In this document: positions 1 to 5,925 of the stretch, piece by piece | Layout: each line of letters begins with the position of its first letter | Position numbering within the stretch: the first letter of the stretch is position 1 | Assembly (NCBI RefSeq): GCF_006345805.1 | Contig: NW_021829783.1 | Location: 1 to 5,925 of the forward strand | Direction of reading: 5' to 3' | DNA length: 5,925 nucleotides | Source of the DNA: Octopus sinensis | Lineage: Eukaryota | The notes under the pieces: generated by a model | What the model was told of the DNA's origin: nothing | Seen by the model: only the letters and a program-made list of their open reading frames with translations | The model's database searches: none | Position numbers and translations under genes: made by a program

Positions 1-461
1 TAAATAAGATGATAGGAAGAAACAAAAAAAGAAATGAAGAACCAAAAAAAATAAAAAGGAAAAGGTGGAGTTGCAGCAGGGAAGGGTGTAAGTGGGAGAG
101 GAGGAGGAGGGGGAATGAATCGGAAGAGAAGGAGGTTGGAGAGGAAGCTGGAGAGGAAGTGGAAGGGGAGAACATATCATATCTCACAGAACTATAGGCA
201 GTTATTAACCATCGTTTTCACTGTCAAAAGTAGAAGGGTTTTGAAGATAAAGGTGCGATTGACATCGAAGATGTGCAAGAGAATAGAAGAGAACGCGTGG
301 ACCGTGAGGATGTGGGTGGGGGTAGAGAGAGAGGGGAGAGGTGGGGAGAGGAGGAGAGAGGAGGAGAGAGGAGGGAGACCGGGTGGAGAGATGGCAGACA
401 AGTAACAGGAAGAGGATGTGGAGGGTGCGAGGAAATTGAAGGAGTTGAAGAAGAAGGAGAA

Positions 462-462
<1 letters not shown>
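1..462. repeat. Purine-rich (GA/GGA/GAA) low-complexity region
   Basis: Strongly A/G-biased + strand with degenerate GGAGAGA units (e.g. gaggagagag repeats around 345-372). The short ORFs here are compositional. Confidence 0.75.
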
Positions 463-492
<30 letters not shown>

Positions 493-525
493 AAGAAGAA
501 GAAGAAGAAGAAGAAGAAGAAGAAG
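463..525. repeat. Perfect (AAG)21 microsatellite
   Basis: Uninterrupted AAG from 463 to 525. Confidence 0.97.
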
Positions 526-619
526 AAAATATGTTATGACGAATAGGATTGGATGTGGTTAACGTGATAACTGAAGGGGGTGGGGAGCAGGGGTGGCCAT
601 TGTGTAGCTGGTAATTTGT

Positions 620-1531: not shown

Positions 1532-1922
1532 AGTGGAGGCGCAATGGTTCAGTGGTTAGGGCAGCGGACTCGCGGTCATAGGATCGCGGTTTCGATTCTC
1601 AGACCGGCGTCGTGAGTGTTTATTGAGCGAAAACACCTAAAAAGCTCCACGAGGCTCCGCAGGGGGGAATGGTGGTGGATCCCTGCTGTACTCTTTCCAC
1701 AACTTTCTCTCACTCTTACTTTACTGTTTCTGTTGTACCTGTATTTCAAAGGGCCGGCCTTATCACTCTCTGTGTCACGCTGAATATCCCGAGAACTACG
1801 TTAAGGGTACAACGTTGTCTGTGGGAGGTGCTCAGACATTTACACGTTAATTTCACGAGCAGGCTTGTTCCGTTGATTCGGATCAACCGGAACCCTCGTC
1901 GTCGTAACCGACGGAGTGCTTC
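1532..1922 (+). mobile_element. Full-length tRNA-derived SINE, family A copy 1 (tRNA-Arg-like head; resembles octopus OR1/OR2-type SINEs)
   Basis: A box TGGTTCAGTGG 1545-1555; B box GTTTCGATTCTC 1589-1600; 5' about 185 nt shared with 3604-3781; 16-bp TSD cacacaccctcggtta (1516-1531) / cacacatcctcggtta (1923-1938), 15/16 identical. The family name is from memory. Confidence 0.9.
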
Positions 1923-2194
1923 CACACATCCTCGGTTATTACATCGGTTCGTAGAGCTTGAACAATCTTGGTGCAATCGGCATAAGTATTTTTTTTCCAA
2001 TCATTTTACACAATGTTGGTGGAAAGGGAAAAATGTGAAAGATGTCATGGTTTTTATTTGTAAACGTGTGTGAGCATTGTGAGAATTGTGAATAAGAAAC
2101 ACTGATTGCACAAACCACTAGTCAAATACAGTTCTATATTTAAGAGATGAGGGATTATGTACATTATTTACATTATTTACATCTTGTTTGTTAT

Positions 2195-2242
2195 TAACAC
2201 AACGTTTCGGCTGATATACCCTCCAGCCTTCATCAGGTGTCA
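2195..2242 (-). ncRNA. Minimal type I hammerhead ribozyme motif
   Basis: Minus strand: UGACAC-CUGAUGA-A-GGCUGG-agggUAUA-UCAGCC-GAAAC-GUU-GUGUUA. Core boxes CUGAUGA and GAAA are present; stem II is 6 bp; stem I UGACAC/GUGUUA is 6 bp; stem III is reduced to the loopless palindrome ACGU; predicted cleavage after GUU (between 2201 and 2200). Confidence 0.8.
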
Positions 2243-2318
2243 TGGGGAAATTTCGAATATTAGGTCTCATTCTTAAGGTAATTTCTTAAGTTATTTTCCG
2301 ATGTTATTATTATCAAAT

Positions 2319-2441
2319 AGGTCAATTTTGCCTTTCATCCTTTCGGGGTCGATAAATTAAGTACCAGTTACGTACTGGAGTCAATCTAATCGACTGGTCC
2401 CCTCCCCCAAAATTTCGGGCCTTGTGCCTAGAGTAGAAAAG
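2319..2441 (+). mobile_element. 5'-truncated SINE, family B (copy B0)
   Basis: Matches the 3' half of 3918-4134 and 4135-4353 (gcctttcatcctttcggggtcgataaattaagtaccagt...agtagaaaagattatt); lacks the A/B-box head; tail merges with (ATT)n. Confidence 0.88.
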
Positions 2442-2542
2442 ATTATTATTATTATTATTATTATTATATTATTATTAGTTATTATTATTATTATTATTAT
2501 ATTATATCATCATCATCATATTATTATTATTGTTATTATTAT
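2442..2542. repeat. Imperfect (ATT)n microsatellite with short (CAT)n insert
   Basis: Directly visible ATT triplets. Confidence 0.93.
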
Positions 2543-2619
2543 TCAGTCACTGCTTGGAATCGAACTCGGAATCTTGGAGTTAGTAGCCCGCGCTCTTACC
2601 ACTACGTCATAGCCAGTGA

Positions 2620-3347: not shown

Positions 3348-3581
3348 AATTCTTTATTGCCCACAAGGGGCTAAACATAGAGGGGGACAAGCAAGGACAG
3401 ACAAATGGATTAAGTCGATTACATCGACTCCACTGCGTAACTGGTATTTATTTAATCGACCCCGAAATGATGAAAGGCAATGTTAACCTCGGCGGAATTT
3501 GAACTCAGAACGTAGCGGCACACGAAATATCGTCAAGCATTTTGCCCGGCGTGCTAACGATTGTATCAGTTCGCCGCCTTG
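3348..3581 (-). mobile_element. Full-length SINE, family B (copy B1, alternative 3' tail)
   Basis: Minus strand begins aaggcggcgaactgatacaatcgttagcacgccgggc; B box GAGTTCAAATTCC 3506-3494; 19-bp TSD tttcgggagtatgttattt (3329-3347) / ttttgggagtgtgttattt (3582-3600), 17/19 identical. Confidence 0.9.
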
Positions 3582-3603: not shown

Positions 3604-3906
3604 GTGGGGGCACATGGCCTAGTGATTAGAGCAGCGGACTCGCGGTCGAGGGATCACGGGTTCAAATCTCAGACCGGGCGATGTGTGTGTTTATGAGCAG
3701 AAACACCTAAGCTCCACGCGGTTCCGGCAGAAGGTAATGGCGAACTTCTGTTGACTCTTTCGCCACAACTTTCTCACTCTTTTCTCCTGCATCTTGTAGC
3801 TCACCTGCGACGGACCGGCGTCCCTTCCAGATGGGGATCCTATACGCCAAGGAAACCGGGAAACCGGCCCAAATGAGCCAAGCATGGCTCGAGAAGGAAC
3901 AAACAA
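3604..3906 (+). mobile_element. Full-length tRNA-derived SINE, family A copy 2 (different 3' tail)
   Basis: A box TGGCCTAGTGA 3615-3625; B box GGTTCAAATCTC 3659-3670; gcagcggactcgcggtc is identical to copy 1; aacaaacaa tail; exact 11-bp TSD tgttattttta at 3593-3603 and 3907-3917. Confidence 0.9.
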
Positions 3907-3917
3907 TGTTATTTTTA

Positions 3918-4134
3918 AGGTGGCGAGCTGGCAGAATCGTTAGCAAGCCGGGCGAAATTCTGAGGTATTTCGTCTGCCGCTATGTTCTGAGTTCAAATTC
4001 CACCGAGGTCAACTATGTCTTTCATCCTTTCGAGGTCGATAAATTAAGTACCAGTTGAGTACTGCGGTCGGTGAGATCGACTGTCCCACTCCCTACAAAA
4101 TATAAGCCGTGAGCCAATAGTACAAAGGATTATT
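3918..4134 (+). mobile_element. Full-length SINE, family B (copy B2)
   Basis: A-box-like TGGCAGAATCG 3929-3939; B box GAGTTCAAATTCC 3989-4001; conserved ctttcatcctttcgaggtcgataaattaagtaccagt domain; ends aaaggattatt. Confidence 0.9.
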
Positions 4135-4353
4135 AAGGCGGCGAGCTGGCAGAATCATTAGCATGCCGGGCGAATTCTTAGCGGTATTTCGTATGCGGCT
4201 ACGTTCTGAGTTCAATTACTGCCGAGGCCGACTTTGCCTTTCATCCTTTCGATATCGATAAACTAAGTACCAGTGAAACACTGGGGTCGATGTAATCGAA
4301 TAGTCCCGTCCCCTCAAATTTCAAGCCTTCTGGCTCCAGTAGAAAGGATTATT
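4135..4353 (+). mobile_element. Full-length SINE, family B (copy B3), tandem to B2
   Basis: Starts aaggcggcgagctggcagaatc immediately after the B2 attatt tail; colinear with B2; ends agtagaaaggattatt. Confidence 0.9.
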
Positions 4354-4441
4354 AAACGTATAATTTTCGGTTTATTAAGCTCCCATGCAGTGATGAAAAA
4401 TCTGGTAGTTTTCATAATATCATTACAAGTTGTCAGAATAA

Positions 4442-4667
4442 TAATCTTTCTTCTATAGACAAAAGGCCTGAAATTTGTGGGACGGGGGAGTAGTCGATTA
4501 CATTGAACCTTCCCCCAGTACACAACTGGTACTTATTATTCAATCGATCCCGAAAGGATGAAAAGCAAAGTCAACCTTTGCAGAATATGAATCCAGAATG
4601 TCAACAGATGAAATTCCGCCAAGCATTTTGTCCTGTGTGCTAACGATTCTCCCAGTTCGCTGCTTTG
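4442..4667 (-). mobile_element. Diverged full-length SINE, family B (copy B4)
   Basis: Minus strand begins aaagcagcgaactgggagaatcgttagcac and contains ttttcatcctttcgggatcgattg...taagtaccagt, ending tagaagaaagattatt; degenerate TSD agttgtcagaataa (4428-4441) / aattgtcaaagtaa (4668-4681), 11/14 identical with all differences A/G transitions. Confidence 0.85.
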
Positions 4668-5110: not shown

Positions 5111-5425
5111 GAAGGTGTATGGCTCAGTGGTAAGAGTGTCCGGCTCACAATCATGAGGCAGAGAGTTTGATTCCCGGACTGCGCTGTGTTGTGTTCTTGC
5201 TCCATTTTAGTCACCTGTAGAAATGAGTTGCAACGTCACAGGTACCAAACTGTATCGGCCTTTGCCGTTCACTTGGATAACATTAGTGGCATGGAGAGGG
5301 GAGGAGGCTGGTATGCATGAGTGCTGCTGGCCTTCCATAAAAACAACCTTGCCTGGACTTGTTGCCTTCGAAAGGAACCTTTCTAGGCTCAGTCCCATGG
5401 TCATTCATGGTCGAAGGGGGTCTTT
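5111..5425 (+). mobile_element. tRNA-derived SINE, family C
   Basis: A box TGGCTCAGTGG 5120-5130; B-box-like GAGTTTGATTCC 5163-5174; GC-richer body than its flanks; terminal hairpin ccatgg-tcat-tcatgg 5395-5410. No clear TSD, so the 3' end is approximate. Confidence 0.75.
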
Positions 5426-5484: not shown

Positions 5485-5555
<71 letters not shown>

Positions 5556-5577
5556 GAGGAGGAGGAGGAGGAGGAGG
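5485..5577. repeat. Compound (AGT)23(AGG)8 microsatellite
   Basis: AGT at 5485-5553 then AGG at 5554-5577, preceded by short cagcat repeats. Confidence 0.96.
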
Positions 5578-5699: not shown

Positions 5700-5733
<34 letters not shown>

Positions 5734-5734
5734 T

Positions 5735-5782
<48 letters not shown>

Positions 5783-5783
5783 G

Positions 5784-5814
<31 letters not shown>

Positions 5815-5925
5815 CGTCATCATTATCATCATCACATCGTCGTCGTCATCATCAACATCACATCATCATCGTCATCATCTTTATCATCATCATCATCGTC
5901 ATCGTCATCGTCATCATCATCATCA
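5698..5925. repeat. Imperfect (CAT)n microsatellite running off the window end
   Basis: CAT units with CGT/TAT/CAC/CAA variants. Confidence 0.96.

What the first reader, a model, noticed from the sequence alone, without database searches (positions are those of the whole stretch)
2195..2242. Hidden minus-strand minimal hammerhead ribozyme
Seen: complete core CUGAUGA...GAAAC-GUU with 6-bp stems I and II, one extra A after CUGAUGA, and stem III collapsed to the palindrome ACGU (within AACGUU). Known: minimal type I hammerheads with palindromic helix III are typical of Penelope-like elements and metazoan retrozymes and are proposed to cleave as dimers. Inference: a monomer should be weak or inactive, while two copies could cleave after GUU at 2201/2200.
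Basis: partly seen in the sequence, partly recalled or inferred. Interest (0 to 1): 0.85.

Follow-up and report, generated by a model that had tools for sequence, protein, structure and literature searches.

The report
Penelope hammerhead behind a tRNA-like promoter
The predicted self-cutting RNA motif is really there but is one worn copy among thousands of the end repeat of a Penelope-type jumping gene; the unusual part is that this protein-coding element carries a tRNA-like promoter sequence at the point where many copies begin, so it may be read by RNA polymerase III.

Summary
The motif is there as described. It is a known kind, the minimal type I hammerhead of Penelope-like retroelements (PLEs). 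The genome holds 5,231 exact core matches (control 2). The window copy is a pseudo-LTR fragment of an RT + GIY-YIG PLE found in the same genome, with the PLE signatures: head-to-head pairs, one 32-nt tail per pair (42 of 44) and target duplications. The hammerhead lies inside the ORF's first codons, as published for the anole PLE, whose ribozyme needs the element's protein. Copies decay neutrally, so a host function at this locus is unlikely. The unusual part is a tRNA-like A-box/B-box segment about 33 nt after the ORF stop. Of 48 head-bearing arms, 28 begin within -14..+8 of its first base. A distant PLE (36% identity to a close homolog) has A/B boxes at the same place; five other PLE 3' UTRs do not. 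This suggests a Pol III promoter in the pLTR of an autonomous element. T-run avoidance is only weak support, and no RNA data were examined. The scan noted this tRNA-headed repeat before on other DNA (e1-9549991, e1-9538922); their notes describe a short element and mention no coding parent.

The parts
2195..2242 (-). Minimal type I hammerhead motif; predicted cut between 2201 and 2200; read in frame with the element's ORF (core gives P-D-E)
2129..2160 (-). 32-nt PLE 'tail' (codons for HNxSSLKYRT near the ORF start); outer end of this arm
2161..2194 (-). Segment between ribozyme and tail, with the 9-nt repeat (2154-2182); about 12 nt shorter than the family majority here; arms without a tail end at its 3' end
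2243..2313 (-). pLTR body upstream of the ribozyme, with the likely start codon at 2270-2268 (cut site 70 nt downstream); frame open for 50 codons to the end of the insertion
2319..2441 (+). Fragment of an unrelated repeat (SINE-like; four more copies in the window) inserted in the (AAT)n spacer
2442..2541 (-). (AAT)n spacer between tRNA-like head and body
2542..2618 (-). tRNA-like head with A box and B box; in ORF-bearing copies it starts about 33 nt after the stop codon
2620..2782 (+). Inverted partner arm: 3' part of the head (2620-2666), then (TAC/AAT/AAC)n; it stops at the start of the body, so it carries no second ribozyme

Best explanation
The motif is the hammerhead of a Penelope/Poseidon-type retrotransposon's pseudo-LTR, and the window holds one short, decayed insertion that was likely copied from an RNA starting at the element's tRNA-like head. 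Shown: the element's order is ORF stop, about 33 nt, tRNA-like head, (AAT)n, ATG, hammerhead, tail, rest of the RT-EN ORF; arms end at two fixed 3' points; 5' ends pile up at the head's first base. Inferred from the anole PLE: the RT primes internally at those two points, about 120 and 150 nt into the ORF, on both nicked target strands, and copies back to the RNA's 5' end. This would give head-to-head pairs with one tail and a target duplication. Priming at the first pLTR-ORF junction of a transcript would give the short copies; priming at a later junction of a tandem transcript would give the long ones. Inferred: the RNA 5' end is set by the A/B boxes acting as an internal Pol III-type promoter. 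The ribozyme is predicted to be nearly silent as a monomer and to cut only with a partner copy or the element's protein. Cutting would separate the start codon from the ORF. At this locus it likely does nothing.
For: Parent element: 25 of 30 loci chosen by the endonuclease protein (one is the query's own locus) have the head right after the ORF and 23 of 30 have the ribozyme downstream. 17 of 30 loci chosen by the ORF 5' DNA have the ribozyme directly upstream; 8 of 11 printed translations keep the register from the ATG through the ribozyme into the RT N-terminal region, 2 of 11 without a stop in 140 codons (also L241). RVT_1 hit E=1e-9. PLE signatures: 42 of 44 inverted pairs in 115 loci have exactly one tailed arm; 34 of 44 share a flank string of 8 nt or more, against 75 of 1,892 mismatched flank pairs (described for PLEs in PMC8557442). 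Two RT start sites, ribozyme in the ORF start, protein-assisted cutting: PMC11167929. 5' ends: 28 of 48 head-bearing arms in 58 loci chosen by the ribozyme begin at -14..+8, 14 begin further inside the head, 6 run beyond, 4 of those more than 300 nt. Only 21 of 79 head-start arms abut an inverted head start, so hairpin fold-back explains a minority. No diagnostic difference between 33 ORF-linked and 73 head-start copies in 244 columns (smallest p 0.0065 before correction). Head is tRNA-like: 17.2 bits with a profile of 15 host tRNAs against at most 9.2 in 200 shuffles; A+B box score reached in 0 of 1,000 shuffles. Distant PLE L281: A+B boxes between stop and ribozyme (0 of 1,000 shuffles), a ribozyme with different stems but the same ACGU palindrome, and the same reading frame. 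Five other PLE 3' UTRs lack such boxes.
Against: No RNA evidence of any kind. ARAGORN (30 loci) and Rfam do not call the head a tRNA. A and B boxes are not better kept than the rest of the head among copies (8.2-8.6% against 6-7%). L281's segment scores only 4.6 bits with the whole-tRNA profile, not significant, and it is one element. T-runs: none of four or more in the 2.5-kb majority sense strand (4.5 expected from base composition), but G-runs are also absent (3.1 expected). With the protein held fixed P is only 0.02-0.18, and L281's ORF has two TTTT runs. Kojima argues that Pol III processivity is too weak for autonomous LTR elements (PMC10886601). D. virilis Penelope has an internal promoter with a downstream promoter element like other Drosophila non-LTR elements (PMC2377424). 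Only 3 of 30 ORF-start loci begin cleanly at the head (L344, L347, L351). RT stalling at the palindrome that overlaps the head start is not excluded.
Confidence: 0.62

Rival explanations
1. Two-tier system. The full element is made by Pol II from upstream or read-through promoters. The tRNA-like head drives only short Pol III RNAs from lone pLTRs, which the parent's RT copies in trans, so the short copies act as a PLE-dependent SINE born inside the parent's 3' UTR.
For: Same pile-up of 5' ends. Short copies far outnumber long ones: 4 of 28 distinct loci in a position-ordered sample reach the ORF. T-run support for Pol III crossing the ORF is weak.
Against: No subfamily split between short and long copies. 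The anole RT needs the first 172 nt of the ORF RNA, and short copies end about 150 nt into the ORF, so their RNA may lack the binding site (inference across families).
Confidence: 0.2
2. The head is a passive relic of a SINE or tRNA fragment that landed in the 3' UTR. The pile-up of 5' ends comes from RT stalling or fold-back at the palindrome (TGCCC-AC-GGGCA) at the head start, not from a transcription start.
For: The palindrome overlaps the pile-up. 21 of 79 head-start arms abut an inverted head start. Boxes show no extra conservation among copies.
Against: 58 of 79 head-start arms join something else. The local fold in the one ORF-linked copy folded is weak, z = -0.93. L281 has A/B boxes in the same position with unrelated sequence.
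Confidence: 0.13
3. One reading: a functional ribozyme at this locus, or a retrozyme unit, that cleaves host or circular RNA as a dimer.
For: The core is intact in this copy; about 17 of 76 unselected copies keep both core boxes. Minimal PLE hammerheads show low dimer cleavage in vitro (PMC4209133).
Against: One core match in the contig. The partner arm is inverted and lacks the motif. Neutral decay: non-CpG substitution 5.2% in the core, 4.9% in stem I, 6.5% in stem II, 4.7% in flanks. The family has an ORF-bearing parent and is not an array of ORF-less tandem units.
Confidence: 0.05

Closest known systems
Minimal type I hammerheads in pLTRs of metazoan Penelope-like elements (Cervera and de la Pena 2014, PMC4209133; parts 1-2 of 4 read)
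   Same: No helix III, palindromic 15.2-16.2, extra base before stem II, G10.1-C11.1 pair, thousands of mostly single copies, some in close inverted pairs.
   Different: No tRNA-like segment or Pol III promoter appears in the parts read; supplements not seen.
PAc, Poseidon element of Anolis carolinensis (Frangieh et al. 2024, PMC11167929; parts 1-2 of 4 and passages read)
   Same: RT + C-terminal endonuclease ORF, ribozyme overlapping the ORF start, two 3' end points defining a tail, pLTR tandems.
   Different: Here the likely ATG lies upstream of the whole ribozyme (cut 70 nt after the A, against 26 in PAc) and the end points are about 120 and 150 nt into the ORF. 'tRNA' and 'polymerase III' do not occur in that paper's main text.
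TRIMp3: Cassandra, Helenus, Ajax (Kojima 2024, PMC10886601; passages read)
   Same: A small-RNA-derived Pol III promoter sequence inside a terminal repeat.
   Different: Those are non-autonomous LTR elements with PBS and PPT; here the repeat is a pLTR and the carrier encodes its own RT.
Schistosoma hammerhead-bearing SINE-like repeats (as reviewed in PMC6765202; passages read)
   Same: Pol III-type promoter followed by a hammerhead.
   Different: Described as non-coding tandem repeats; no coding parent sharing the promoter is mentioned in the passages.
Metazoan non-LTR retrozymes (PMC7229834, passages; bioRxiv 10.64898/2026.07.22.740005, part 1 of 5 and passages)
   Same: Type I hammerhead in a short repeat related to PLE pLTRs.
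   Different: Retrozymes are ORF-less head-to-tail arrays; this family is mostly single or head-to-head and continuous with an ORF.

Membership tests
Minimal type I hammerhead of PLEs | Core CUGANGA / GAAA / UH with stems I and II and no helix III | tested here: met
Minimal type I hammerhead of PLEs | Extra base between 9 and 10.1, G10.1-C11.1 pair, palindrome at 15.2-16.2 | tested here: met
   against the features listed
Minimal type I hammerhead of PLEs | Located in the pLTR of a PLE | tested here: met
Minimal type I hammerhead of PLEs | Compensatory changes in stems | tested here: inconclusive
   None evident within the family. L281 has different stems with the same layout, seen by eye; no formal covariation test was run.
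Minimal type I hammerhead of PLEs | Site-specific cleavage (dimer or protein-assisted) | not testable with these tools
   needs a bench assay or RNA-end data
EN+ PLE, Penelope/Poseidon clade | Single ORF with an RT domain | tested here: met
   RVT_1; 73% identity over residues 207-803 of the 806-aa homolog P0134
EN+ PLE, Penelope/Poseidon clade | C-terminal GIY-YIG endonuclease | tested here: inconclusive
   Pfam gives no GIY-YIG hit. Called from the recalled motif look (VYSIPC..YKGET) and its alignment to homologs.
EN+ PLE, Penelope/Poseidon clade | No CX2-5CxxC zinc finger between RT and EN | tested here: met
   Absent; present in another PLE family of this genome; criterion
EN+ PLE, Penelope/Poseidon clade | pLTR tandems, inverted 5'-truncated partner, 30-40 bp tail on one side | tested here: met
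   criterion
EN+ PLE, Penelope/Poseidon clade | Placement in the RT phylogeny with named references | not tested
   no named reference set was fetched
tRNA-derived SINE | tRNA-derived head with A and B boxes | tested here: met
   (ARAGORN and Rfam negative)
tRNA-derived SINE | Non-autonomous lineage distinct from its partner element | tested here: not met
   the ORF-bearing copies carry the same head; no diagnostic columns
tRNA-derived SINE | Transcribed by Pol III | not testable with these tools
   only indirect signs
Non-LTR retrozyme | ORF-less head-to-tail tandem units, each with a hammerhead | tested here: not met
   short tandems occur in a few loci (L096, L099, L104, L275) but the family is continuous with an ORF
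TRIMp3 (Helenus, Cassandra, Ajax) | Non-coding element between two true LTRs with PBS and PPT | tested here: not met
   coding parent and PLE-type ends; PBS and PPT were not searched for

The most novel reading that the evidence does not exclude
A clade of Penelope-like elements uses a captured tRNA-type internal promoter in its pseudo-LTR, so that RNA polymerase III transcribes a 2.5-kb protein-coding retrotransposon. The uncapped RNA serves as message and template, the in-frame hammerhead acts as a switch that cuts off the start codon, and every pLTR copy is at once a SINE-like unit.
Probability: 0.27. Interest if true: 0.82.

Novelty: new variant of a known kind. Interest (0 to 1): 0.5.

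Why it matters
The ribozyme itself adds one more family to a described class. If the tRNA-like head is the working promoter, this would be an autonomous retroelement with a Pol III-type promoter, which bears on how SINE-like elements arise and on how uncapped retroelement RNA is translated. The thousands of genomic copies also record the RNA start and the two RT start points, which gives an in vivo check of the internal-priming model from the anole PLE. In practice, such pLTR fragments could be mislabelled as SINEs or lone ribozymes.

Tried and rejected
Rfam scans found no hammerhead in the window and no tRNA in heads. ARAGORN at default found none in 30 loci; relaxed settings gave inconsistent calls and 18 hits in L281, so they are noise. 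My first reading, a stand-alone tRNA SINE with a separate PLE partner, was dropped when the ORF appeared upstream of the head. The GIY-YIG Pfam search and a second PLE family led to other PLE families; those checked (L031-L080) did not match this pLTR, and both sets served as T-run controls. An 18-nt likeness of the tail to another PLE's coding end (E 0.058) was treated as chance. A subfamily split of short and long copies was not found. The strict A/B regular expression hit L281 (1 of 20,000 shuffles; 0 hits in 218,918 bases of 18 other loci) but missed this family's own head, so it was replaced by a weight matrix. The L281 rows were out of frame and were redone. Energy evaluation of the active dimer failed, and co-folding gave another arrangement; only duplex energies (-1.7 kcal/mol for ACGU, -3.5 for AACGUU) were usable. 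No target duplication was found for the window's own insertion (by eye). Viral contigs gave no relatives and genome contigs one short hit that was not examined. A search of G000 with L281's endonuclease returned as top hits many places already found for this family and no sister family that I could see; its loci were not examined further. Literature searches listed no paper whose title or abstract start describes a tRNA-like segment in a PLE pLTR; most hits were seen only as listings. Repbase, Dfam and subscription journals could not be searched, and no supplements were read, so the family may already be annotated there.

Full report
1. The observation. The minus strand at 2242..2195 holds the motif as described. 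Alone it is weak evidence: a relaxed core pattern appears in 85 of 200 shuffles, folding z is -1.32 and Rfam has no hammerhead among its 36 matches. The family makes it real. A DNA search gave 3,077 candidates, 40 scored. An exact core pattern gave 5,231 matches against 2 for the control; the first 100 listed all look like this family. One 62-nt stretch has 288 exact copies. The window is a whole contig of a 2.7-Gb genome. No sequence call names the host; earlier scan notes guess an octopus, which fits my recall of such repeats.

2. Anatomy of the repeat. Copies share a 77-nt tRNA-like head, an (AAT)n spacer, about 48 nt of body, the ribozyme, about 46 nt, and an optional 32-nt tail. In the window this arm runs from 2618 to 2129 on the minus strand. 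A fragment of another repeat interrupts the spacer (2319-2441). An inverted partner starts at 2620 and stops before the body. In 115 loci there were 44 inverted head-to-head pairs: 42 had exactly one tailed arm, and 34 shared a flank string of 8 nt or more, against 75 of 1,892 mismatched controls. The inverted partner and one-sided 30-40 bp tail are described PLE features (PMC8557442, passages).

3. The parent. Some copies continue upstream of the head into an endonuclease-like C-terminus. Of 30 loci chosen by that protein (one is the query's own), 25 have the head after the stop (about 33 nt in most) and 23 have the ribozyme further on. Long copies show a decayed ORF with an RT domain, 73% identical over residues 207-803 to an 806-aa homolog. 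No zinc finger lies between RT and endonuclease, which points to the Penelope/Poseidon type. Pfam does not recognise the endonuclease, so that label rests on a recalled motif, and no tree was built. Of 30 loci chosen by the ORF's 5' DNA (L331-L334 and L339/L344 look redundant), 17 have the ribozyme directly upstream. Eight of 11 printed translations keep the register from an ATG in the body through ribozyme and tail into the RT N-terminal region. The window copy keeps that frame for 50 codons. So the hammerhead lies in the coding sequence and the tail is coding sequence near the ORF start.

4. What is known about such ribozymes. Minimal hammerheads with these features are general in metazoan PLEs; monomers of the one tested did not cut and dimers cut weakly (PMC4209133, parts 1-2 of 4; review PMC6765202, passages; the Lunse paper itself was not available). 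In the anole PLE the ORF starts within the ribozyme, cutting needs the protein, cutting is not needed for insertion, no reads ending at the cut site were found, and RT starts internally at two sites that define the tail (PMC11167929, parts 1-2 of 4). Here the predicted monomer fold sequesters the core. In 78 copies from 70 loci not chosen by the ribozyme, non-CpG substitution is 5.2% in the core, 4.9% in stem I, 6.5% in stem II, 5.7% in loop II and 4.7% in flanks. About 17 of 76 keep both core boxes, a count that depends on gap placement. The intact core in the window is therefore unremarkable.

5. The tRNA-like head. ARAGORN and Rfam do not call it. A profile of 15 distinct host tRNAs, covering few isotypes, scores the family majority at 17.2 bits against at most 9.2 in 200 shuffles, and the window's head at 13.8. 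A weight matrix finds TGGCGTAGTGG and AGTTCGATTCC 33 nt apart, matched in 0 of 1,000 shuffles. In 58 loci chosen by the ribozyme, 48 arms carry head sequence: 28 begin at -14..+8, 14 further inside, 1 at -17, 1 at -109 and 4 beyond -300 (arms cut before the head are not in this count). Of 79 head-start arms in 115 loci, 21 abut an inverted head start, 24 abut a partner cut elsewhere and 34 abut unrelated sequence. Short and ORF-linked copies show no diagnostic column after correction (33 against 73 copies, 244 columns). The simplest reading is that both come from the same RNA, whose 5' end is the head start. A metagenome search gave 19 distant loci. One, L281, is an intact tandem PLE (36% identical to P0134) with A and B boxes between stop and ribozyme (0 of 1,000 shuffles), a ribozyme with other stems but the same palindrome, and the same frame. 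Five other 3' UTRs, three from this genome and two from the metagenome set, have no such boxes; many of the other metagenome loci end before their 3' UTR. Against: the whole-tRNA profile gives L281 only 4.6 bits, and the boxes are not better kept among copies.

6. Does Pol III cross the ORF? The majority sense strand has no run of four T in 2,478 nt (4.5 expected by composition), while zinc-finger-linker PLE ORFs of like T content have 9-13 in 2.3-2.6 kb. Copies show 15 runs in 52 kb. But G-runs are absent too, low phenylalanine content explains part of the gap, P is 0.02-0.18 with the protein fixed, and L281's ORF has two such runs. This is weak support. Kojima's argument on Pol III processivity (PMC10886601, passages) and the promoter of D. 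virilis Penelope (PMC2377424, passages) speak against it. Ribozyme-aided cap-independent translation has been reported for RNA viruses (PMC13725137, passages), but here cutting would remove the likely start codon.

7. Mechanism and verdict. Shown: family, parent, layout, two 3' end points, 5' pile-up, A/B boxes, neutral decay. Inferred: internal priming, RNA start at the head, Pol III use, weak or protein-assisted cutting. The tRNA-like segment in the pLTR of a coding PLE is a variant I did not find described in searches, where most hits were seen as listings only; PMC6962438, PMC13282606 and PMC7229834 (passages) and the retrozyme preprint (part 1 and passages) do not describe it in what I read. 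Repbase, Dfam, subscription papers and supplements were not seen. Interest 0.5; novel case 0.27.

Noticed in passing
window 1544-1602, 3614-3673, 5118-5180 (+): Three more tRNA-like heads (21-27 bits with the host tRNA profile) that look like ordinary SINE starts.
   Followed up: no
window 3911-4355 (+), 3413-3489 and 4437-4577 (-): Copies of the repeat whose fragment sits in the spacer at 2319-2441; two are in tandem with a 219-nt period.
   Followed up: partly
L010, L016, L023, L083, L085, L092, L122: The (AAT)n spacer often holds other repeats with AAT tails, so it looks like an insertion hot spot.
   Followed up: partly
L061:5230-5290, L066:4757-4810, L070:4763-4815: A zinc-finger-linker PLE family with intact 780-aa ORFs has a hammerhead-like motif with a changed core (UUGAUAA in place of CUGANGA; palindrome ACAUGU).
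   Followed up: no
L066:9755-9800: Another PLE family has a minimal hammerhead-like motif starting UUGAAGA and ending GAAACGUU.
   Followed up: no
L281 (5,862 nt): Intact PLE in two identical 2,791-nt tandem units with an 855-aa frame from an ATG just before the ribozyme core; two TTTT runs within about 170 nt after the predicted cut and none further on. The identity of the units may reflect assembly.
   Followed up: partly
P0141 N-terminus: The peptide QRFGRLILRPSSG looks like the antisense reading of a hammerhead of this type, hinting at an inverted pLTR in a close relative; DNA not seen.
   Followed up: no
L012:1500-1590 (-): The segment after the cut site folds into a stem enclosing an A-rich loop (z = -2.77); it spans the first 3' end point. 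The window copy has lost part of it (z = -1.27).
   Followed up: partly
family-wide: U7-to-A is the most frequent change at a non-CpG position of the ribozyme (11 of 75 copies); recalled as the one freely variable core position.
   Followed up: partly
window 447-527, 673-1204, 5485-5577, 5700-5925: Long trinucleotide microsatellites; they cause the snoRNA-like Rfam noise.
   Followed up: no
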